Shown here piece by piece: positions 19,953 to 51,734 of a stretch of DNA of 64,000 nucleotides. The stretch is from assembly GCA_045591265.1 (NCBI GenBank), contig JAZNSQ010000019.1, positions 16,067 through 80,066 on the forward strand. The letters run 5' to 3'. A model generated the notes under the pieces. That model was not told the DNA's origin. It was given only the letters and a program-made list of their open reading frames with translations, and ran no database searches. This DNA is from Clostridia bacterium. GTDB lineage: Bacteria > Bacillota > Clostridia > UMGS1883. Made by a program: the position numbers and the translations under genes. Position 1 is the stretch's first letter, and each line of letters starts with the position of its first letter.

Positions 19953-20027
19953 GTGGAGCGGGTGACGGGAATCGAACCCGCGTTGCCTGCTTGGGAAGCA
20001 GGTACTCTGCCATTGAGCTACACCCGC
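19953..20027 (-). tRNA. tRNA-Gly (anticodon CCC)
   Basis: Reverse complement GCGGGTGTAGCTCAATGGCAGAGTACCTGCTTCCCAAGCAGG...GGTTCGATTCCCGTCACCCGCTCCA. It has a cloverleaf with a TTCCCAA anticodon loop and an encoded CCA. Confidence 0.85.
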
Positions 20028-32265: not shown

Positions 32266-32940
32266 TTAAGGTATAATCCTGACGGGAGTGCCTACATTTA
32301 CTAAATTAAAAAGAGACTCAACATCTTCGTTATACATTCTTATGCATCCGTTTGATGATGCCGTGCCGATAGATGCGGGGTTATTCGTCCCGTGAATGCC
32401 GTAGCCAAGCGCCGAAAGTCCAAGCCATCTTGTGCCATAGGGCCCCCCGGGGTCAAGCTCTTTATTTATTATTTCAAAGTTTCCCGTAGGGGTGGGGGAC
32501 TCGGGCGCACCGGTAGCGATAATGTATTCACGATAAATGCGCCCGTCTCTAAATACAATAAGACGTTTATTTGATACATTTATTAAAATTTCAACAGGGG
32601 AAAAAGGAGACGGAATGCATATTCTTTGCCCTGGCGTAAGATTATTTGGGTTAAGGCTCGGGTTTTCATTTAGAATGTCACTGACCTCTACAGAAAATCT
32701 TTGTGCAATAGACGCTAAGGTATCCCCGCGGTTAATGTTATAGGCTATTGTGCCAAGCGGGCAGTTTACAGGCTGAAATGTCCCTGAAATAACGCATATT
32801 TCCTCTCCAACAGACAAATTGTTAGCATCTAATCCCGGGTTAAGCCTTAAGATTTTTTCGGGCGTGACATTAAACATGGCGGAAATTGAAAAAAGCGAGT
32901 CCCCGGGCTTTATAACATAAGACTGTGTGCACTCAATCAT
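32266..32940 (-). CDS. LysM-domain L,D-transpeptidase (YkuD family)
   Basis: Two LysM repeats (YVIKPGDSLFSISAMF, YNINRGDTLASIAQRF) plus YkuD catalytic motif SNGCIRM. Confidence 0.85.
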   Translation of the reverse strand: MIECTQSYVIKPGDSLFSISAMFNVTPEKILRLNPGLDANNLSVGEEICVISGTFQPVNCPLGTIAYNINRGDTLASIAQRFSVEVSDILNENPSLNPNNLTPGQRICIPSPFSPVEILINVSNKRLIVFRDGRIYREYIIATGAPESPTPTGNFEIINKELDPGGPYGTRWLGLSALGYGIHGTNNPASIGTASSNGCIRMYNEDVESLFNLVNVGTPVRIIP

Positions 32941-33593
32941 AAAATGCTCACCTCCGTACCAATCGGGATAAGGTTAAAGAGTGTGTCCATATCCTTGTCA
33001 GACAAAATAATACTTCGTCTTGAGCACCTTGCTCTTTCGCCGCAGATTGATATATCGCGCTCGGAAAGGTCAAGCCACTTGCTTCCGCCAACGGGATTAT
33101 CAAGCCTTTTTCTTATTACATAGGAATTAAGCTTTTCAGGCGGATAAAGAGCATCAAAGGAAACCTCGTCCCCGTTATCAAATTTTACGAAAAGCTTTCC
33201 GTCTGTTACAACAATTTGCGCGGGGGACGGGGCAATCGGAATGCATAAAATAAGACCGCGGTAAATGTTTTTTTCGTCTACACCGATATTATGGTAAAGA
33301 ATTTGATTTACGCTTACACCAAAATAGCGAGAGATTGAATAAAGCGTGTCATTTTCCTGTACGACATAGTAATTTGTCGTGCGGCAATATGGATAATACT
33401 GCGCAGTAAGAGGCACGCAAATAGTGCTTCCAATCTGCAGATTATAAACCTCCACCTCGGGATTTAACTCCAACAAACGCTTAACACTTGTTGAAAATTT
33501 TACGGAAATAGAATAAAGCGTGTCGCCCCTTCTTATTTTATAGGGGAAACACCCGGGTTTGCATATTTTATTGTTGCAAGACATAATTTTCAC
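32937..33593 (-). CDS. LysM-domain protein with L,D-transpeptidase-like C-terminal domain (catalytic motif divergent)
   Basis: Two LysM repeats (YKIRRGDTLYSISVKF, YVVQENDTLYSISRYF) and a YkuD-like fold whose catalytic segment reads ICGERARCSRRS rather than the canonical HGC/SxGC. Confidence 0.65.
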   Translation of the reverse strand: MKIMSCNNKICKPGCFPYKIRRGDTLYSISVKFSTSVKRLLELNPEVEVYNLQIGSTICVPLTAQYYPYCRTTNYYVVQENDTLYSISRYFGVSVNQILYHNIGVDEKNIYRGLILCIPIAPSPAQIVVTDGKLFVKFDNGDEVSFDALYPPEKLNSYVIRKRLDNPVGGSKWLDLSERDISICGERARCSRRSIILSDKDMDTLFNLIPIGTEVSIL

Positions 33594-34236: not shown

Positions 34237-34821
34237 ATGTGGGTTTATGAAAAAAAGCTTCAGTATCCGGTAAAAATAAAAAATCCTGACCCCAGAATGG
34301 CGCAGGTAATTCTTTCACAATATGGTGGACCTGATGGTGAGCTTGGCGCATCGCTTCGCTACCTCAGTCAACGTTTTTCAATGCCAAACGAAATCTGTAA
34401 AGCAACACTAAATGATATCGGCAGTGAAGAGCTTGGGCACCTTGAAATGATTGGAACGATAGTCTATCAGCTTACAAGAAATTTAACTGAAAAACAGCTT
34501 AAGGAAGCAGGCTTTGACAAGTATTTTGTTGACCACTCGACTGCAATTTACCCTGCTTCTGCAGCAGGTGTGCCCTTTAATGCCTCATATATTCAGTCTA
34601 AAGGTGACGTAATAGCAGACCTCACCGAAGACCTTGCAGCAGAGCAAAAGGCACGTGCAACGTATGATAATATCTTAAAGCTTGCTGATGACCCTGATGT
34701 AATTGACCCGATTAAGTTTCTCCGTCAGCGCGAGGTAGTTCACTTCCAGCGCTTTGGCGAGGCACTTCGCACAGTTCAGGATATGAGTGACAGAAAGTAC
34801 TACCCGACAAAAATGAGATAA
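34237..34821 (+). CDS. cotJC: spore coat protein CotJC (manganese catalase family)
   Basis: Ferritin-like di-metal motifs (ELGHLEMIG, REVVHFQRFGEAL). The 3' ~75 nt is duplicated at 39231-39310. Confidence 0.9.
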   Translation: MWVYEKKLQYPVKIKNPDPRMAQVILSQYGGPDGELGASLRYLSQRFSMPNEICKATLNDIGSEELGHLEMIGTIVYQLTRNLTEKQLKEAGFDKYFVDHSTAIYPASAAGVPFNASYIQSKGDVIADLTEDLAAEQKARATYDNILKLADDPDVIDPIKFLRQREVVHFQRFGEALRTVQDMSDRKYYPTKMR

Positions 34822-34883
34822 ATTATAAGGAAATCTAAAAAAGTCCAGAGCAAAAGACAAATACTGTAATTGATATAAAAATA

Positions 34884-34920
34884 ATAAACCCGTTTATTGA
34901 GCTTCAATAAACGGGTTTAC
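34884..34920. terminator. bidirectional terminator (cotJC / XRE gene)
   Basis: AAACCCGTTTATTGA-GCT-TCAATAAACGGGTTT perfect hairpin. Confidence 0.8.
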
Positions 34921-35123
34921 TTATCTGTGCCTAAAATGTAATCTGCACTAACGTCATAATACTTACAAAGACTAATAAGATGATGTAAGGGCAATTCGTT
35001 TGCACCCCTTTCGTATCGTGCATACATGGTTTGCGATGTTCCCAAAATTTTTGCTATTTCGGCTTGCGTTTTATCATGGTCTTCCCTCAGGTCGCGTATC
35101 ATTTTAACATAATACGAGCTCAT
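34917..35123 (-). CDS. XRE-family helix-turn-helix transcriptional regulator
   Basis: 68 aa; HTH segment QAEIAKILGTSQTMYARYERG; divergent from the giant surface-protein gene. Confidence 0.8.
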   Translation of the reverse strand: MSSYYVKMIRDLREDHDKTQAEIAKILGTSQTMYARYERGANELPLHHLISLCKYYDVSADYILGTDK

Positions 35124-35243
35124 AAAAACACCTCATTACGCGTTATATACATATATTATACCAAGTAAACAAGTTTACTATTGACTTTAGTAAATATTTG
35201 TACTATAATCGCATTACGATAAATCAGGAAAGAGGAAATATAA

Positions 35244-38200
35244 ATGAAGAAATTTTTAAGCTTATTATTAATAACTATAATGTTATTTTCAACATTGATT
35301 AATATACTGCCAAGTACCGCTTTCGCGGAAAGTAGCGGGGCTTACTGGTACTATGGAGATTACTATGAAGGTAGTCCTTACACTATTTACCTATGCGGTA
35401 ATGGGACAATAGATCTCCGCGAGATTGATTGGGAAAGTTACCAATCCATTGTGATAGAGGATGGGGTTACTGTTGTAGGTGAGGCGGGGGTAAATGCCAT
35501 ATACTCATTTAACAGGGGCGTTCTGACAATTAGTGGAACGGGATCGACCTATTTTTTCCACGGACACTGGCAGGATTGGTCACGATGGAGTGATAAAATA
35601 ACAAAATATGTTTTCAACGAGGGCATTACTGAAATTGAAGAAGATACTGTAATAGGAGAAAATGTAACAAGCGTAGTTTTGCCAAGAAGTCTGGCAGTTA
35701 TGGACACAGCCTGGAACGGCGTTTTTAACTTAACACCTAACCTAACCGATGTTTATTATAGAGGAACGGAAGAAGAATGGAATAACGTAAAAATGGGAGC
35801 GGGCAGTGCACATATTGAAGGAGTGACAATGCATTATAATTATGGTTCAACAAACACAACTAACTCTACCTCTGATATGAAATCATATGCGCAAGAAGCG
35901 GGAATATCATATGGCGACTATTATTATAATATTTTTACACAATATGCCACAATAGCAAAGGACGATTCTACAGAAATGATGTTTTCCGCGAATGTTATTA
36001 CTAATGGTGAAAGTCATAGCAATTTAAAAATGTATCTTACTCAAGGTCCAGACAAGATGTTGCCTGTTGATACCTGGGCTAAGACCCCTATAAAACCAGG
36101 GGAATTTTTTGAAGCAGATAGAAAAATCTATTTGCTTTTACAAAATACCGCTACAGGTCAATCATCCTCAAAACTCACAAAATTAAAGGTTGTTTCTGAA
36201 AATATTAAAAATGACGTTATATGGGAACAAGATGATGTTGACGAGAAATTTTCTTTCAAATTGGGAAATATGATAAGCTTTACTATACCAGATACAGTGC
36301 CTGTGTTTGGTGGAGCTGAGGTTGGAATGGATTTGGACTTTATTCCCATATCTGTTGAATATGCACATCCTGATAAACTAAATATAGTTTTTGGCACTGA
36401 AATAGCGAGTCAAAAAGGTGAAAAAGACAGGGTGTGGGGTGATGTGAAATACTTTAAAGATTTCTCTTTCGAAAATTATAAAAAGGATTTTAAAAAAGCC
36501 ATTTCTAAGAGTAATCGTTCAATAAAGCAGCTTAGAAATGATTATAAAATGACAAATAAAGTTCCGTTGAAAAGTTTTAAAAATATAAGCGGAAATGTTG
36601 ATGTTGCTGGTTATGCAGAAATGAAATACATAAATGGCCAATGGCGATTTGTTGAAGGTATGCTTGGTCTTGATGCAGAAATCGGCTACAAATATCAGGG
36701 CAATAATGTTATTTATTTTATTCCCATCACATACAGTATAGGTGGAAACGTTGGTGCAGGTATTGATGGTGTTATGAAAAATCTTAGTGCGGATACATTT
36801 ACACCACAATTTGAGGGTTATTTAAATGGTAGAATATCTGCTACTATTGGTGGGGGTATAGGTGCAAGCTTTGCTAAACTTGTATATGCCGATGGCACAG
36901 GAACTCTTAATGTAAGAAAGTCGCTTAATGACGAATACTTAAAAAGTTGGGTAGATGCTCACGCTGACTTTGTTGTATGTGAGGTAGGTTTCTTTGCCCT
37001 CTTAAGAAAGACTTTTGCGCAAGGAGAGTGGTTAATATACGAAACGGGTAATCCTGATGGTCTTATACCATATAATACTATGTCTTTAATGAGTATTAAT
37101 GATATTTATTCAAATTATGATAAAGATACGGTTTACGAATTTACTCCACGAAACGAAGAAGAGACTACCTGGCTTGGCGATTCAGCACCAATTTCATTAT
37201 TCGAAGCTGAATATACAGGGCAAGATGCAAAACTTTTAAGTGAAAATGTCTATTATAGTGCAGAACCACAAATAGATTTTATTAATGGAAAAAAGGTTAT
37301 GGTATGGGTGTCTGATAACAAAGATAGAGATATCTATAATAAAACCATGCTTGTATATTCCATATATGACGAATCAAGCGATACATGGTCTGCACCCTTG
37401 GCTGTAAGTGATGATGGAACCTCAGATACATATCCTAATTTTAATAATGGATATGTTGTATGGCAAAACAATAACTCTATGATGGACGAAAACACTACTA
37501 TTTCAGGATACGCTAAAGACTGTGATATTTGTATTGCAAAATTTAATGGAACAGGCTTTGATGAAGCTATAAAAGTAACAGATAATCAGATAATGGATTC
37601 AATGCCTATGGTCTTTGCTGATGAAAATGGTGTTAATGTGGTGTGGATTACCAATACCGAAAATGATATATTGGGGACAACTGGAAAAAATAGTATTTAT
37701 TTTAAGAAACTTGGTGAGACAGAACAAATTATAGAAGATAATCTTAATGCTATTACAAGTTTATCTTTAGGAAATATTAATAATGAAGTAAGCATTGCAT
37801 ATTCATTTGATGAAGATAATGATTTGGCTACAATTGATGACAGAGATATTTATGTGTATAGTGATGGAAACACAATAAACTTAAATAATGATGACATTAT
37901 TAATTCAAATCCTTTGTTCTCTGGGAATAAGTTGTATTGGTATAGCGATAATAATATAGAATACACTTCGGACTTGAGTACGGTAAACCAAATGTTTAAC
38001 TCTACAGGCATCTCTACTGACCAATTTAATGTGTATACAAATAATAATGGTAAAAGTGCTGTTTTTTGGACAGAATCAGATGAAACGGCTACTGAGGTCT
38101 ATGTATCATTATTTGAAAATAATAAATGGAGCAATCCGATAAAATTAACTGATTTAAATATTAAAATAAAATCTCCTCATGGTATTTTAGATGGAAATGG

Positions 38201-39230
38201 AAATATAGCAGTTTCATTTACTGATATTGCAGTAGATGGTGAAAATATTATTGCAAACTTGTACGTGCTTGATGCAATTCCATCTTATGATATATCAGTT
38301 GCAAATGTGGAATTTAATGAAAACAACTTAGTTGAAAATTCGGATTTTCCAATTTCTGTTGACGTCGTAAATGATGGGGAAAAAGATATAAATGAATATC
38401 AAATAACTATTTCTGACGGACATGGAGTAAATAATACATATACTTTTAGTGATAAACTAAAGGCTGGTACTGCAGTAACACAAACCATACAATACAGTGT
38501 TCCAACTACAATGAGCAAACAAACAATAAGCATAAGTGTTACAATAACTGATGGTGAAGAATTTGATGTTTCAAATAATAGTTGTGATTTGATTTTGGGT
38601 AATGAAAGAATATCCCTTTCTAAAATTGAATTACATGAAGCGGGAGAAAGGTATCAAATAATATCTGAAATTATAAATGAAGGCTTTGCAGACTCTCCTG
38701 ATATTACTGTTAATTTAAGAAAAGACTCCGTAGATGGAACTATCATACACAAAAGATATATTTCTTCCTTATCTTCACAAGGCAGTAGCGAAATTGTTTT
38801 TGATGAGCCAATAGCTGGTATAGAATACGAGGATGGAATAAAGAAACTCTATGTAACTGTTGAATGTAATGATTCAGTAGAGGACTCTGAATATGTTTTA
38901 TTACAAGAAATGCAGGCAGATAAAGAATTTGAGCAAATGATTGTCTTAACCAACTATAATTCTGATACTAAAATTCTTAACAGTAATGCTATCGTAACGA
39001 ATAATACTGATACAAAACAAGATTTTGTAATGATTTTCGCTGTGTATGACGGGGATAGATTGCTCGGCATAGATTATAGTGACGGCAGTGTTTTGCCATA
39101 TAATGAAACATCTGTAGATGGATTTGTTAGTTTAAGTGATTATAAAACTCAATATACAGTACGTTCGTTTTTGTGGCAGGATTTAGAAAAAATTATGCCA
39201 CTATGTGAAAAAGATGAATATTTACAATAA
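35244..39230 (+). CDS. large secreted cell-surface protein (signal peptide, BspA-type LRR-like N-terminal module, CARDB-like repeats)
   Basis: Signal peptide MKKFLSLLLITIMLFSTLINILPSTAFA. The LRR_5/BspA-like block ends in YYRGTEEEWNNVKM. C-terminal Ig-like CARDB-type segments read ISVDVVNDGEKDINEYQITISDG. There is no LPxTG. The gene looks more AT-rich than its flanks by eye. Confidence 0.75.
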   Translation: MKKFLSLLLITIMLFSTLINILPSTAFAESSGAYWYYGDYYEGSPYTIYLCGNGTIDLREIDWESYQSIVIEDGVTVVGEAGVNAIYSFNRGVLTISGTGSTYFFHGHWQDWSRWSDKITKYVFNEGITEIEEDTVIGENVTSVVLPRSLAVMDTAWNGVFNLTPNLTDVYYRGTEEEWNNVKMGAGSAHIEGVTMHYNYGSTNTTNSTSDMKSYAQEAGISYGDYYYNIFTQYATIAKDDSTEMMFSANVITNGESHSNLKMYLTQGPDKMLPVDTWAKTPIKPGEFFEADRKIYLLLQNTATGQSSSKLTKLKVVSENIKNDVIWEQDDVDEKFSFKLGNMISFTIPDTVPVFGGAEVGMDLDFIPISVEYAHPDKLNIVFGTEIASQKGEKDRVWGDVKYFKDFSFENYKKDFKKAISKSNRSIKQLRNDYKMTNKVPLKSFKNISGNVDVAGYAEMKYINGQWRFVEGMLGLDAEIGYKYQGNNVIYFIPITYSIGGNVGAGIDGVMKNLSADTFTPQFEGYLNGRISATIGGGIGASFAKLVYADGTGTLNVRKSLNDEYLKSWVDAHADFVVCEVGFFALLRKTFAQGEWLIYETGNPDGLIPYNTMSLMSINDIYSNYDKDTVYEFTPRNEEETTWLGDSAPISLFEAEYTGQDAKLLSENVYYSAEPQIDFINGKKVMVWVSDNKDRDIYNKTMLVYSIYDESSDTWSAPLAVSDDGTSDTYPNFNNGYVVWQNNNSMMDENTTISGYAKDCDICIAKFNGTGFDEAIKVTDNQIMDSMPMVFADENGVNVVWITNTENDILGTTGKNSIYFKKLGETEQIIEDNLNAITSLSLGNINNEVSIAYSFDEDNDLATIDDRDIYVYSDGNTINLNNDDIINSNPLFSGNKLYWYSDNNIEYTSDLSTVNQMFNSTGISTDQFNVYTNNNGKSAVFWTESDETATEVYVSLFENNKWSNPIKLTDLNIKIKSPHGILDGNGNIAVSFTDIAVDGENIIANLYVLDAIPSYDISVANVEFNENNLVENSDFPISVDVVNDGEKDINEYQITISDGHGVNNTYTFSDKLKAGTAVTQTIQYSVPTTMSKQTISISVTITDGEEFDVSNNSCDLILGNERISLSKIELHEAGERYQIISEIINEGFADSPDITVNLRKDSVDGTIIHKRYISSLSSQGSSEIVFDEPIAGIEYEDGIKKLYVTVECNDSVEDSEYVLLQEMQADKEFEQMIVLTNYNSDTKILNSNAIVTNNTDTKQDFVMIFAVYDGDRLLGIDYSDGSVLPYNETSVDGFVSLSDYKTQYTVRSFLWQDLEKIMPLCEKDEYLQ

Positions 39231-39310
39231 GAAACAGCGCTTCGGTGAGGCACTTCGCACTGTTCAGGATATGGCAGACAGAAAGTACTACCCAACAAAA
39301 ATGAGATAAA
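39231..39310 (+). repeat. displaced duplicate of the cotJC 3' end (encodes ...QRFGEALRTVQDMADRKYYPTKMR-stop)
   Basis: About 68/75 nt identical to 34747-34821, starting immediately after the stop of the giant gene; followed by a terminator. Confidence 0.85.
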
Positions 39311-39344
39311 AAAAAGGGATGCAAATTGCATCCCTTTTTTATTT
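39309..39344. terminator. bidirectional terminator (ancestral cotJC terminator / GH3 gene)
   Basis: AAAAAAGGGATGCAA-TT-GCATCCCTTTTTT perfect hairpin. Confidence 0.8.
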
Positions 39345-41053
39345 TAGCAATAAACTTGTCTGAGCTTTGGTGTGGTATCAACAGGTGATTTTCCTACAAT
39401 CGGAATTTCGCCGTAAACTGCTTTTACAAAAGCTTTTTGCGCTTCTTCGCTTGGGTTATAAATGTTAAAGTATGTATTTGCACCGGGCATGACGTCATGA
39501 CCAATGTAAGGATAACCTAAAGATACACCGATAGATTTATCCGTCGCCTTACTAAAGGTGAACATAAACGGAAGAAGCTTATCCCCCGCGAAGTGTGGCA
39601 TACCTGACGGACGATGTCCTGCAAGGTGTGCCGCATGGATAATAAGGTCACATTCATTTACGAATTTATTGTAGATAGCAAGCATATCAAAATAATCAGT
39701 ACCATTTTCGGCAAAGTTATTTGTAAGTATAACCTCTGCACCGCGCTTTTCAAATTCCGCCTTCATAACCTTAAGAGATTCAAAGAAGTCATCAGAATAT
39801 GAAGAGAATGAAATAGCAACCTTCTTAATATTTTCTTTCTTAACAGGAACAATATTTGAAGTATTTCTTAGCATTGTAACTGATTTTTCGGAAAGCTGTC
39901 TGTTAATTTCTGCGGTTTCCTTTGCAAGCTCCTCAATTTCTATATCTTCGTCATAGAAAGAACCATCAAAAAGACCCATTTTTTCTTTAAGGTCAAGCAC
40001 TCTCTGGCATGAGTCATCAATTCTTGACATAGGAATTCTGCCGTCCTTAACAGCATTGCAGAGAGTATCTAGAGCGTTTAAGTCAGCTGCTAAAAGAAGG
40101 TCATTACCAGCATTTATCATACGGATAAGCTTTTCTTCTTCAGAACACATTGTTGAAAGTGCACCCATAGTAATAGCATCAGTAACAATAACACCTTCAA
40201 AACCAAGCTCTTCACGAAGAAGACCAGTGATAATCTTCTTTGAAAGTGTGGCAGGTACGTACTGACCGTTAAGCTTTTCATCATCAACTGCGGGGAAGGA
40301 AGTATGACCAACCATTACTGTCCATACACCATTATCAATTGCATGCTTAAAGGTTTTTGCCTGAGTTTCTTTCCATTCTTCATAGCTATAAAGCATTGAT
40401 GTAGAAACATAGTGGCTGTCGCGGAATTCATAGGGGTCACATCCCGGGAAGTGCTTTGCACAAGCGGGGATATGCGCTGACTGCATACCCTTGATTGCTG
40501 CAACAGAGTGCTTTTTGATTAATTCTATATCATCATCAGAAAATGATCTTCCCTGGCTTATACCATTAAATCTGTTACACAAGTCAACAACGGGTCCCCA
40601 GCGCCATGTTGCACCGCCGGATTTTATTTCGCGGGCAATATTTCTTGAAATCTTGAATGTAAGGTCTTCATCATCAGCCGCACCGATAGCATAGCCTGAT
40701 GCAGTTTTTGTAGCATCACAAAAAGTATATCCTGCGCCATTTTCGCAGTCCACACCTACAAGCATGGGTATACGCGCCTTTTTACCAACTCTGTCTAAAA
40801 AGTCCTTACTCTCTCTTGTGGTAAGGGGGTTAAGTCCGCCTATTTCTGCCATGTTAGCTGTTTGCATTCTTATTCTGCCACAGTACCACATACCCGAAAA
40901 CTGCTGTTTTTCCATAATTTCGTCCATTTCTTCGTAAGTGCGGGCAACCTGTTTTCCATCAACTTCTTTATCAAAGAAGTCAAGCTGATTTACCAAAAGA
41001 AGCTGGGAGACTTTTTCTTCCAAAGTAAGCTCATTTAAAGCCGGTTTTTTCAT
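39344..41053 (-). CDS. glycoside hydrolase family 3 (NagZ-like beta-N-acetylhexosaminidase / beta-glucosidase)
   Basis: GH3 N-terminal domain pattern (GVDCENGAGY, KHFPG, GHTSF). Start at MKKPAL, preceded by GGAGGTATAT. Confidence 0.75.
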   Translation of the reverse strand: MKKPALNELTLEEKVSQLLLVNQLDFFDKEVDGKQVARTYEEMDEIMEKQQFSGMWYCGRIRMQTANMAEIGGLNPLTTRESKDFLDRVGKKARIPMLVGVDCENGAGYTFCDATKTASGYAIGAADDEDLTFKISRNIAREIKSGGATWRWGPVVDLCNRFNGISQGRSFSDDDIELIKKHSVAAIKGMQSAHIPACAKHFPGCDPYEFRDSHYVSTSMLYSYEEWKETQAKTFKHAIDNGVWTVMVGHTSFPAVDDEKLNGQYVPATLSKKIITGLLREELGFEGVIVTDAITMGALSTMCSEEEKLIRMINAGNDLLLAADLNALDTLCNAVKDGRIPMSRIDDSCQRVLDLKEKMGLFDGSFYDEDIEIEELAKETAEINRQLSEKSVTMLRNTSNIVPVKKENIKKVAISFSSYSDDFFESLKVMKAEFEKRGAEVILTNNFAENGTDYFDMLAIYNKFVNECDLIIHAAHLAGHRPSGMPHFAGDKLLPFMFTFSKATDKSIGVSLGYPYIGHDVMPGANTYFNIYNPSEEAQKAFVKAVYGEIPIVGKSPVDTTPKLRQVYC

Positions 41054-41194
41054 AAAATATACCTCCAAATCAGTATTCAGGTTCATTATAGCATTACCAA
41101 ATTAAAAGTCAATACAATTTTGTAATTTTTCTGGCTAAATTGACAAAAATCATTTTAGCATATATAATGCTTTTTATAGAAATGGAGATAGATT

Positions 41195-45824: not shown

Positions 45825-46171
45825 CTGGTGGAGGCGAGGGGGGTTGAACCCCTGTCCGAAAACATATTCACACAGGCATCTCCGAGCGCAGTCACTTAAT
45901 TAACATTCCCTCTGCCGTATGGCAAGTGACAGCCTCACGGTTTTAGTAGCTTCATTTGTCATGTATGGCGCAAAGCTTTGCCATATCACGTTCACCACTT
46001 TGTGACGCCCTTATCCAAGCCGTGGTCCTCCCGGTAAGGACGGCTACCTAATTAGGCAGCGTAAGCTAAATTTTTGTTAGCGTTTAATTTTAAAGTTTGG
46101 AATTTTAACGTAGTTTCCGCTACGGCTCGCTTCCCATGCTTCAACATCCCCGTCGAAACCGGAACGCCCCC
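45825..46171 (-). ncRNA. ssrA: tmRNA (SsrA)
   Basis: 5' end GGGGGCGTTCCGGTTTCGACGGGGATG. 3' tRNA-Ala-like end CGGACAGGGGTTCAACCCCCCTCGCCTCCACCA. An internal tag ORF ends ...AAC AAA AAT TTA GCT TAC GCT GCC TAA (..NKNLAYAA). It lies just downstream of smpB. Confidence 0.9.
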
Positions 46172-51578: not shown

Positions 51579-51654
51579 GGTGGGCCTTCAGGGACTCGAA
51601 CCCCGGACCGACCGGTTATGAGCCGGTTGCTCTAACCAACTGAGCTAAAAGCCC
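51578..51654 (-). tRNA. tRNA with CAT anticodon (elongator Met, or Ile2 if lysidinylated; sequence resembles Bacillus tRNA-Ile2)
   Basis: Reverse complement GGGCTTTTAGCTCAGTTGGTTAGAGCAACCGGCTCATAACCGGTCGGTCCGGGGTTCGAGTCCCTGAAGGCCCACCA. Confidence 0.85.
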
Positions 51655-51659
51655 TTATA

Positions 51660-51734
51660 TGGTGACCCGTACGAGATTTGAACTCGTGTTCCCGCCGTGA
51701 AAGGGCGGTGTCTTAACCGCTTGACCAACGGGCC
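51660..51734 (-). tRNA. tRNA-Glu (anticodon TTC)
   Basis: Reverse complement GGCCCGTTGGTCAAGCGGTTAAGACACCGCCCTTTCACGGCGGGAACACGAGTTCAAATCTCGTACGGGTCACCA. Confidence 0.85.

What the first reader, a model, noticed from the sequence alone, without database searches (positions are those of the whole stretch)
35244..39230. 1328-aa secreted protein combining BspA-type LRR-like and CARDB-like modules without a cell-wall anchor
A clear signal peptide is followed by a module ending in YYRGTEEEWNNVKM, typical of BspA-like leucine-rich repeats. Next comes a ~700-aa beta-rich region of unknown function. Near the C-terminus are at least two Ig-like CARDB-type segments. There is no LPxTG, SLH or choline-binding anchor. 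As the sole cargo (with an XRE regulator) of an inserted segment, it is a candidate adhesin or host-interaction factor.
Basis: partly seen in the sequence, partly recalled or inferred. Interest (0 to 1): 0.5.

Follow-up and report, generated by a model that had tools for sequence, protein, structure and literature searches.

The report
Inserted secreted surface protein, new chassis
The gene is real and encodes a secreted 1328-aa protein brought in on a 4.4-kb two-gene insertion; it belongs to a large, undescribed family of clostridial surface proteins in which a fixed ~1100-aa body, including a porin-like β-sheet domain absent from Pfam, carries interchangeable binding heads.

Summary
The ORF (35244-39230, +) is confirmed, with a Sec signal peptide and no recognisable anchor. 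Pfam and NCBIfam find neither LRR_5 nor CARDB in it.

Sandwich, module, propeller and two CARDB-like domains form a fixed chassis. The module matches 1225 50%-identity clusters, almost all in secreted proteins of 1000-5000 aa. Heads vary (LRR_5, DUF6273, C-type lectin, M23, GLUG, Big_6). Some relatives have C-terminal SLH, dockerin or Listeria-Bacteroides repeats.

The insertion claim is confirmed. Two related contigs have cotJC abutting GH3. In the window an 85-nt duplicate of the cotJC 3' end brackets the XRE gene plus this gene, and GC is 0.33 against 0.39.

Most likely it is a non-enzymatic, adhesin-like binding protein. A membrane-active role for the new module is not excluded.

The parts
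34747..34831 (+). Left copy of the 85-nt direct repeat. It forms the 3' end and stop codon of the intact cotJC gene (left junction of the insertion).
   Evidence: repeat D1, 87% identity between copies, spacing 4488 bp; the window sequence diverges from the empty site of L028 right after the TAA.
34823..39234 (.). Inserted DNA of about 4.4 kb, GC 0.334 against 0.38-0.40 in the flanks. It contains only the XRE gene and the 1328-aa gene.
   Evidence: empty sites in L028 and L029; junction alignment; ORFs; GC.
34883..34921 (-). Perfect 16-18-bp hairpin followed by a T-run; terminator of the XRE gene.
   Evidence: (inverted repeat I11).
34917..35123 (-). 68-aa HTH_3 (XRE/Cro-type) regulator, divergent from the large gene.
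   Evidence: PF01381, E 1e-13; phrog_8, transcriptional regulator.
35181..35209 (+). Sigma-70-type promoter TTGACT-17-TATAAT (11 of 12 matches), ending 35 nt before the ATG, in the 120-bp divergent intergenic region.
   Evidence: It is the best match in the region, but it is a consensus match only.
35244..35327 (+). Sec signal peptide, aa 1-28, with predicted cleavage AFA|E.
   Evidence: Among family members with complete N-termini, 152 of 169 have similar signal-peptide-like starts.
35328..35870 (+). Short, degenerate BspA-type LRR head, aa 29-209. It contains the LTISGTG cap motif (aa 93-101) and the DVYYRGTEEEWNNV C-cap (aa 171-184).
   Evidence: aligns only to LRR_5 proteins; family consensus; Pfam HMM itself negative.
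35871..36194 (+). Beta-sandwich 1 of the chassis, aa 210-317.
   Evidence: pLDDT 80-90; conserved in most family members.
36195..37229 (+). Middle module, aa 318-662, with no Pfam model. It has a conserved FTIPDxVPVFGG segment, two short helices, and seven 15-25-residue beta-strands (aa 448-600, nt 36585-37043) with one strictly uncharged face.
   Evidence: strands at pLDDT 85-95; fold searches; 1225 clusters; dyad pattern; no Pfam match.
37230..38339 (+). Seven-bladed beta-propeller, aa 663-1032, with a conserved DxDxD..T..D loop at aa 856-866 (nt 37809-37841).
38340..38879 (+). Two CARDB-like beta-sandwiches, aa 1033-1121 and aa 1122-1212. The conserved residues N1043, G1045 and N1145 lie here.
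   Evidence: (CARDB in homologues at the aligned positions).
38880..39230 (+). C-terminal beta-sandwich, aa 1213-1328, followed by the stop codon. It is present in about a third of family members and carries no known anchor motif.
39235..39319 (+). Right copy of the 85-nt repeat: a remnant of the cotJC 3' end, starting 4 nt after the stop codon of the large gene.
   Evidence: collinear with the empty site of L028.
39310..39340 (.). Resident bidirectional terminator hairpin shared by the original cotJC and GH3 genes, now also lying downstream of the large gene.
   Evidence: inverted repeat I19; conserved in L028.

Best explanation
This is a Sec-secreted, non-enzymatic, modular binding protein that resembles an adhesin or surface-display protein. 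It belongs to a large, so far undescribed family from gut and rumen Clostridia.

The family is defined by a fixed chassis of about 1000-1100 aa. In order, the chassis is a beta-sandwich, a long-strand beta-sheet module, a 7-bladed beta-propeller with one Ca-loop-like motif, and two CARDB-like Ig domains. Some members add a further beta-sandwich at the C-terminus.

Variable ligand-binding heads sit N-terminal to the chassis. Here the head is a minimal, degenerate BspA-type LRR. Anchors, when present, are C-terminal, so the head points away from the cell.

This copy has no recognisable anchor. It is therefore either released or held non-covalently.

The gene arrived with a divergent XRE-type regulator as a 4.4-kb cassette. 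The cassette integrated at the 3' end of cotJC and duplicated about 80 nt of it. It is probably transcribed from its own strong promoter, under control of the XRE protein.

Shown here: the ORF, the signal peptide, the family and its chassis, the head swapping, the anchors in relatives, and the insertion.

Inferred: the binding function, the orientation on the cell, and regulation by the XRE protein.
For: - ORF and signal peptide.
- Family: 27 full-length homologues at 32-41% identity.
- Chassis: conserved in most of the 141 representative proteins examined, in the same domain order.
- Heads: LRR_5, DUF6273, Lectin_C, M26_N/GLUG, M23 plus LRR_5, and Big_6.
- C-terminal anchors in relatives: SLH in P0138, dockerin in P0149 and the P0029 group, Flg_new repeats in P0142.
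- Secretion: 152 of 169 members with complete N-termini have signal-peptide-like starts.
- Non-enzymatic: family-wide conserved residues are only Gly, Pro, Trp, the CARDB N-x-G motif and one DxDxD..T..D loop. No catalytic constellation is present.
- Propeller: its best fold matches include sugar-binding PLL-type lectins and integrin alpha propellers.
- No partner gene: no neighbouring gene family recurs across 27 loci.
- Expression of similar proteins: LRR_5-dockerin proteins of a Ruminococcus MAG were detected in a secreted rumen metaproteome (PMC7480376; a lead only).
- Insertion.
- Promoter and regulator.
Against: - No binding partner or cellular location has been shown.
- The query has no anchor, so surface display is not demonstrated for this copy.
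- The chassis is far better conserved than the heads. This suggests the chassis carries the main, still unknown, activity and is not a passive stalk.
- A seven-strand sheet with a completely uncharged face (0.8% charged residues) is not explained by a stalk role.
- Some relatives carry M23 peptidase heads, which points to action on bacterial cell walls and not on host ligands.
Confidence: 0.55

Rival explanations
1. The protein is membrane-active. The long-strand module would insert into a membrane or oligomerise into a beta-barrel. It would work either as a pore-former aimed at host, protist or bacterial membranes by the variable heads, or as a new kind of membrane anchor.
For: - The weak Foldseek list holds TonB-dependent receptors and gasdermin, hemolysin and pneumolysin pores.
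- The strands show a clean dyad pattern with an uncharged face over 8-10 alternate positions per strand in 186 sequences.
- There are glycine-rich hairpins (GGGxG).
- No neighbouring immunity or partner gene recurs.
Against: - The hosts are Clostridia such as Monoglobus, Oscillospiraceae and Blautia. From general knowledge these have no outer membrane and no BAM machinery.
- The apolar face is 32% Gly plus Ala. This fits a tightly packed buried interface at least as well as a lipid-facing surface (inference).
- Relatives are tethered by SLH or dockerin, which is unusual for diffusible pore-forming toxins.
- The module is internal and has no C-terminal beta-signal.
- I could not inspect model coordinates to see which face is exposed.
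Confidence: 0.12
2. The protein is a carbohydrate-active enzyme. The propeller would be a divergent polysaccharide lyase or glycosidase, with the CARDB and LRR modules as accessory binding domains.
For: - Some relatives carry dockerins and sit beside cohesin genes.
- The family comes from fibre-degrading gut and rumen Clostridia.
Against: - Identities are 8-12%, and lectin and WD40 propellers score equally well.
- Family-wide conserved polar residues are limited to one Asp-rich loop typical of Ca binding. No conserved Arg, His, Tyr or Glu constellation is present.
- Pfam and NCBIfam give no enzyme family hit.
Confidence: 0.1
3. The protein is a structural cell-envelope or cellulosome-associated component, for example a spacer or an S-layer-associated scaffold, with no specific external ligand.
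For: - The chassis is conserved and rich in beta-sandwich and propeller domains.
- Relatives carry SLH or dockerin anchors.
- The protein is very acidic (net charge about -103), as is common for envelope and cellulosomal proteins (general knowledge).
Against: - The heads are typical ligand-binding or lytic modules (LRR, lectin, M23) and are swapped frequently.
- This copy is strain-specific and recently inserted, so it is dispensable.
- It has no anchor.
Confidence: 0.1
4. The protein is an interbacterial antagonism factor. The chassis would dock onto competitor cell walls, as it does in the relatives that carry M23 peptidoglycan endopeptidase heads.
For: P0149 and P0199 combine Peptidase_M23, LRR_5 and the chassis. 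No immunity gene is needed for exolytic enzymes (general knowledge).
Against: The query has no M23 or other lytic domain. Most heads in the family are LRR_5 only.
Confidence: 0.06

Closest known systems
BspA-like LRR surface proteins (Pfam LRR_5, PF13306), e.g. Tannerella BspA and LRR_5-dockerin cellulosomal proteins of Ruminococcus
   Same: - The protein is secreted.
- The N-terminal region (aa ~65-200) is homologous to LRR_5 regions and carries the LTISGTG and DVYYxG..W cap motifs.
- Close homologues have bona fide LRR_5 arrays (14 of the 22 sequences in A2).
- Dockerin-bearing relatives match the 'LRR_5-dockerin' outline reported in PMC7480376.
   Different: - The query's own LRR is too short and degenerate for the Pfam HMM.
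- The LRR is not the defining part of the family. It is replaced by a lectin, DUF6273, GLUG or Big_6 in relatives that share the same chassis.
CARDB-containing cell-surface proteins (PF07705)
   Same: Two Ig-like beta-sandwiches with the conserved N-x-G motif. CARDB is detected by Pfam in 18 of the 22 sequences of A2 at the aligned positions.
   Different: There is no Pfam hit in the query itself. CARDB is only about 15% of the protein.
Seven-bladed beta-propeller lectins and Ca-binding propellers (PLL, BP39L and CV39L lectins; integrin alpha FG-GAP propellers; CylK)
   Different: Identity is 8-12%. No Pfam propeller family is matched. Ligand binding has not been tested.
Outer-membrane beta-barrel proteins (porins, TonB-dependent receptors, autotransporter and Omp85 barrels)
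   Same: The module has a long antiparallel beta-meander of 15-25-residue strands with dyad hydrophobicity. These proteins are its top fold matches.
   Different: - The hosts are presumably monoderm.
- The module is internal to a soluble multidomain protein.
- It has only seven long strands, an odd number.
- There is no significant Foldseek match and no sequence similarity.
Gene-3'-end-targeting integrative elements and Campbell-type insertions
   Same: The insertion sits at the 3' end of a gene and restores the reading frame. It is flanked by direct repeats of the target, and relatives show empty sites.
   Different: There is no integrase, transposase or other mobility gene in or near the insert. 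The repeats are long (85 nt) and only 87% identical.

Membership tests
BspA-type LRR (Pfam LRR_5, PF13306) | Match to the PF13306 HMM at or above the gathering score | tested here: not met
   the query gives no LRR_5 hit even at E<=1.
BspA-type LRR (Pfam LRR_5, PF13306) | Sequence homology to bona fide LRR_5 regions, with the characteristic cap motifs | tested here: met
   aa 65-201 align to LRR_5 proteins P0003, P0044, P0047 and P0048 (30-35% identity, E to 2e-13); the family consensus LTISGTG...DVYYxGxxxxW is present in the query at aa 93-101 and 171-184.
BspA-type LRR (Pfam LRR_5, PF13306) | LRR solenoid fold | not tested
   The head (aa 29-209) was not included in either structure prediction.
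CARDB (PF07705) | Match to the PF07705 HMM | tested here: not met
   no hit in the query; only a weak choice_anch_U match (E 0.04) at aa 1052-1108.
CARDB (PF07705) | Homology to CARDB domains and an Ig-like beta-sandwich fold | tested here: met
   CARDB is detected at the aligned positions in 18 of the 22 sequences of A2 and in distant members; the query matches the family cardb1 and cardb2 HMMs at about 1e-28; beta-sandwiches at pLDDT 85-90.
Sortase-anchored (LPXTG) surface proteins | C-terminal LPXTG motif, hydrophobic segment and positively charged tail | tested here: not met
   the only LP.T match lies inside the signal peptide (aa 22), and there is no C-terminal hydrophobic segment. Only 2 of 182 family members have an LPXTG-like C-terminus.
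SLH-, dockerin- or choline-binding-anchored proteins | Presence of SLH, Dockerin_1 or CW_binding repeats | tested here: not met
   none in the query. They are present in relatives: SLH in P0138, dockerin in P0149 and P0029.
Transmembrane beta-barrel (outer-membrane protein type) | Amphipathic dyad-repeat beta-strands with an uncharged face | tested here: met
   66 apolar columns with 0.8% charged residues across 186 sequences.
Transmembrane beta-barrel (outer-membrane protein type) | Closed barrel with an even number of strands and a lipid-exposed apolar face | not testable with these tools
DSSP shows seven long strands. That 155-169 residues superpose on 12-14-strand barrels suggests an open half-barrel (inference).
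Transmembrane beta-barrel (outer-membrane protein type) | Host with an outer membrane, and a C-terminal beta-signal | tested here: not met
   Family members come from Monoglobus, Oscillospiraceae, Blautia and other Clostridia. The module is internal. That these taxa are monoderm is general knowledge and was not tested here.
Known beta-pore-forming toxin families (aerolysin/ETX-MTX2, leukocidin, CDC/MACPF) | Sequence or fold match to one of these families | tested here: not met
   no Pfam hit; only non-significant Foldseek matches (E 0.3-1.4, TM about 0.1).
Integrative mobile element | Flanking direct repeats and an empty site in relatives | tested here: met
Integrative mobile element | Element-encoded integrase or transposase | tested here: not met
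   the insert holds only the XRE gene and the large gene, and the neighbouring genes are housekeeping.
Polysaccharide lyase or glycosidase propellers | Conserved catalytic residues | tested here: inconclusive

The most novel reading that the evidence does not exclude
The ~345-aa middle module would be a new kind of membrane-type beta-sheet used by bacteria without an outer membrane. It would be a half-barrel that oligomerises or inserts into a target or vesicle membrane. On this reading the whole family is a modular, head-targeted pore-forming or membrane-docking system, widespread in gut and rumen Clostridia.
Probability: 0.12. Interest if true: 0.8.

Novelty: new variant of a known kind. Interest (0 to 1): 0.5.

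Why it matters
Gut and rumen Clostridia are mostly uncultured, and how they touch their surroundings is poorly known.

This gene leads to a family of more than a thousand 50%-identity clusters of large secreted proteins. They share a fixed body invisible to current domain databases and swap binding heads. That is a natural candidate for strain-specific adhesion to, or recognition of, fibre, mucus, host cells or other microbes.

The un-annotated module deserves a Pfam entry and a structure. If its porin-like sheet really meets a membrane, that would be an unexpected use of the fold in bacteria that lack an outer membrane.

The locus is also a clean natural example of strain-level gain of a surface protein with its own regulator, at a defined junction.

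Tried and rejected
- Direct Pfam, NCBIfam, PDB-sequence and PHROG searches of the query gave nothing useful.
- A profile search of the word-indexed protein database with the middle-module alignment returned a single hit and was wasted. The exhaustive HMMER search worked instead.
- The genome scan with the broad alignment A1 failed for lack of conserved stretches. A2 worked, but the window's own genome was not recovered.
- A 90-sequence full-length alignment failed, so I trimmed the segments locally.
- AFDB fold libraries were unavailable.
The host species therefore remains unnamed.
- A sporulation link through the adjacent cotJABC genes is rejected. The adjacency is created by the insertion, and homologues elsewhere have unrelated neighbours.
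- A conserved partner gene is rejected. The recurrent ORF clusters are antisense ORFs inside the gene itself.
- Phage origin is rejected.
- An enzyme role is not supported by the conservation pattern.
- No integrase or transposase was found in or near the insert.
- Literature searches found no description of the chassis.
Full report
OBSERVATION. The window holds a single 1328-codon ATG ORF at 35244..39230 on the + strand. A ribosome-binding site (AGGAAAGAGGA) precedes it. The best sigma-70-like promoter in the region is TTGACT-17-TATAAT at 35181-35209. The N-terminus MKKFLSLLLITIMLFSTLINILPSTAFA|E is a typical Sec signal peptide and is the only strongly hydrophobic stretch in the protein. There is no C-terminal LPXTG, no lipobox and no second hydrophobic segment. 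Pfam finds no SLH, dockerin or choline-binding repeats.

DIRECT DOMAIN SEARCHES FAIL; HOMOLOGUES RESCUE THE CALLS. Pfam and NCBIfam give no LRR_5 or CARDB hit on the query even at E<=1. There is no PDB sequence relative. A search of 5.8 billion proteins found the identical protein once, on an NCBI contig of 172,617 bp. It also found about 27 full-length homologues at 32-41% identity and more distant ones at 22-27%. BLAST mapping shows that aa ~205-1325 are the conserved core. Residues ~65-200 align only to BspA-type LRR_5 regions, at 30-35% identity and E down to 2e-13. Pfam run on the homologues places CARDB at the positions aligned with query aa ~1030-1120. Among the 22 sequences of alignment A2 (the query core plus 21 close homologues), CARDB is detected in 18 and LRR_5 in 14. 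The family consensus contains the LRR_5 cap motifs LTISGTG and DVYYxGxxxxW, and the query retains both.

ANATOMY. An AlphaFold2 model of aa 201-1328 was built with 39 sequences and has mean pLDDT 78. Local HMMs of its blocks complete the picture:
- aa 1-28: signal peptide.
- aa 29-209: short, degenerate LRR head.
- aa 210-317: beta-sandwich.
- aa 318-662: a middle module.
- aa 663-1032: a 7-bladed beta-propeller at pLDDT ~90.
- aa 1033-1121 and 1122-1212: two CARDB-like sandwiches.
- aa 1213-1328: a C-terminal sandwich.

THE MIDDLE MODULE. A profile of this module has no PDB sequence hit. It has no recurrent Pfam hit among 40 diverse members at E<=1. An exhaustive HMMER search of 1.84 billion cluster representatives found 1225 clusters at E<=1e-3 and 874 at E<=1e-10. 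Almost all are proteins of 1000-5000 aa with a single internal copy. I re-predicted the module with 40 non-redundant sequences. The region aa 448-600 then became confident (pLDDT 85-95) as seven antiparallel strands of 15-25 residues, preceded by two short helices and a less certain N-terminal part. That N-terminal part carries the most conserved motif, FTIPDxVPVFGG.

Across 186 family members the strands show a clean dyad pattern. In the 66 apolar columns only 0.8% of residues are charged; the composition is G 19, L 14, V 13, A 13, I 11, F 8 and Y 5%. The other face is rich in E, K, S, T and D. The only residues conserved family-wide in the module are G357, G384, G456, E459, P494, G538 and G540. 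The module is therefore a structurally distinctive, un-annotated domain.

Because about 155-169 residues superpose on 12-14-strand barrels, and 8-strand barrels are absent from the top hits, I infer an open, half-barrel-like sheet. I could not inspect the coordinates. Whether its apolar face is buried against the N-terminal part of the module, forms a hydrophobic groove, or meets a membrane or another protomer remains open. The high Gly and Ala content of that face fits close packing at least as well as lipid exposure (inference).

THE FAMILY. Among the 141 representative proteins from the exhaustive search, the domain order sandwich, module, propeller, CARDB, CARDB (sometimes followed by the C-terminal sandwich) is almost invariant. 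Everything N-terminal to it varies. Head length runs from 0 to 3657 aa, with a median of 448. The query's 209 aa is among the shortest. The heads are LRR_5 arrays, DUF6273, a C-type lectin, M26_N/GLUG, Big_6, and M23 peptidase plus LRR_5. Tails, when present, include SLH (P0138), dockerin (P0149 and the P0029 group), Listeria-Bacteroides repeats (P0142) and Big_2. Of the 169 members with complete N-termini, 152 have signal-peptide-like starts.

The loci recovered from species-representative genomes are all MAGs of gut or rumen Clostridia: Monoglobus, Ornithomonoglobus, Ructibacterium, Fumia, Oscillospiraceae and Blautia. No neighbouring gene family recurs across 27 loci. One relative sits beside cohesin and dockerin genes, another among housekeeping genes. 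The family is absent from PHROGs and from viral contigs.

Conservation across the family is structural: Gly, Pro, Trp, the CARDB N-x-G motif, and a DxDxD..T..D loop at aa 856-866 in the propeller. From memory, that loop resembles integrin FG-GAP Ca2+ loops. No catalytic constellation is seen.

THE INSERTION. In the window the gene lies between cotJA-JB-JC (a Mn-catalase-type CotJC) and a convergent GH3 gene. A contig from a close relative, L028, is 94.4% identical over cotJB-JC and 86.5% over the GH3 side. It has cotJC followed after 36 bp by GH3, with no XRE gene and no large gene. A second, longer contig, L029, has a GH3 that is 87% identical at the protein level. It shares synteny over more than 9 kb (GH3, cotJC, JB, JA, LysM, LysM-YkuD, NAD kinase, ArgR, RecN and beyond) and has the same empty junction.

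In the window an 85-nt direct repeat (87% identity) brackets the extra DNA. One copy is at 34747-34831 and forms the end of the intact cotJC. The other is at 39235-39319 and starts 4 nt after the stop codon of the large gene. The right copy, the terminator hairpin at 39310-39340 and the GH3 3' end are collinear with the empty site. The left copy diverges from it directly after the cotJC stop codon.

The insert (about 34823-39234) has GC 0.334 against 0.38-0.40 in the flanks. It contains only the 68-aa HTH_3/XRE gene, with its own terminator at 34883-34921, and the large gene. No integrase or transposase lies in or near it. The structure fits integration at the 3' end of cotJC that restored the reading frame. 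This could have been site-specific integration by a recombinase acting in trans, or a Campbell-type single crossover of a circular fragment carrying a diverged copy of the cotJC end. Which of the two occurred is not decided. In 15 billion proteins this exact protein occurs once, and its nearest relative is 40% identical. The donor is therefore unknown.

MECHANISM. The best-supported reading (confidence about 0.55) is a secreted, non-enzymatic binding protein of the surface-display type. The variable N-terminal head gives ligand specificity. The chassis acts as a rigid body that may add a Ca-dependent, lectin-like propeller site. In relatives the C-terminus is tied to the wall or to a cohesin. 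This copy is a minimal, anchor-less version under its own promoter, probably controlled by the XRE regulator.

Shown: the architecture, the family, secretion signals, anchors in relatives, and the insertion. Inferred: binding, orientation and regulation.

The rivals are:
- a membrane-active role for the long-strand module (0.12);
- an enzymatic propeller (0.10);
- a purely structural envelope component (0.10);
- an antibacterial docking factor, as suggested by the M23-bearing relatives (0.06).

COMPARISON AND NOVELTY. The protein is related to BspA-type LRR proteins and CARDB-containing surface proteins, but those modules are peripheral. The defining chassis has no Pfam model apart from CARDB, and I found no description of it in the literature. 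A rumen metaproteome lists secreted 'LRR_5-dockerin' proteins of a Ruminococcus MAG (PMC7480376). These could be family members, because the chassis is invisible to Pfam; this is a lead only. A large survey of transmembrane beta-barrels attributes Firmicutes barrels to the diderm members of the phylum (PMC10629564).

I rate it a new variant of a known kind (modular clostridial surface proteins) that contains a probably new domain. Interest is 0.5. The protein is ordinary in outline. It is notable for the size of the unrecognised family, for the porin-like module in presumably monoderm hosts, and for the very clean insertion junction.

Noticed in passing
window 34747-34831 and 39235-39319: The two copies of the cotJC 3' end differ at 11 of 85 positions. 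Over the ~75 aligned coding positions (my count from the alignment), the left, functional copy is closer to the empty-site relative L028 (about 95%) than the right remnant is (about 91%). This mirrors the identity of the left flank (94.4%) and the right flank (86.5%). It may reflect relaxed selection on the remnant or a recombination breakpoint.
   Followed up: partly
window 45826-46171 (-): A full-length tmRNA gene (Rfam RF00023, 162 bits). tRNA genes lie at 19957-20027, 51581-51654 and 51663-51734, all on the minus strand.
   Followed up: no
window 32266-33593 (-): Two adjacent LysM-domain genes, one fused to a YkuD L,D-transpeptidase domain, lie divergent from the cotJABC operon. This arrangement is conserved in the relative L029.
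   Followed up: no
L026 367-5442: Next to a distant family member (P0129) lie a 1438-aa protein combining Peptidase_M23 and dockerin (with a faint cohesin hit) and a 248-aa cohesin protein. This echoes the M23-plus-LRR_5-plus-chassis fusions (P0149, P0199) and hints at a link between the family and cell-wall-lytic cellulosome-like assemblies.
   Followed up: no
window 36195-36470 (aa 318-410): The most conserved sequence motif of the whole family, FKLGxxxGFTIPDSVPVFGGTE...DFIPISVEY, lies in the part of the middle module that AlphaFold predicts with the lowest confidence. pLDDT is 36-50 in the full-core model and 50-86 in the module model. High conservation with poor prediction may indicate an interface or a segment that changes conformation.
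   Followed up: partly
window 39344-41086 (-): The mechanical ORF of the GH3 gene is 580 aa. The database protein (P0265) and all close relatives are 568-569 aa, so the true start is probably an internal ATG 11 codons downstream.
   Followed up: no
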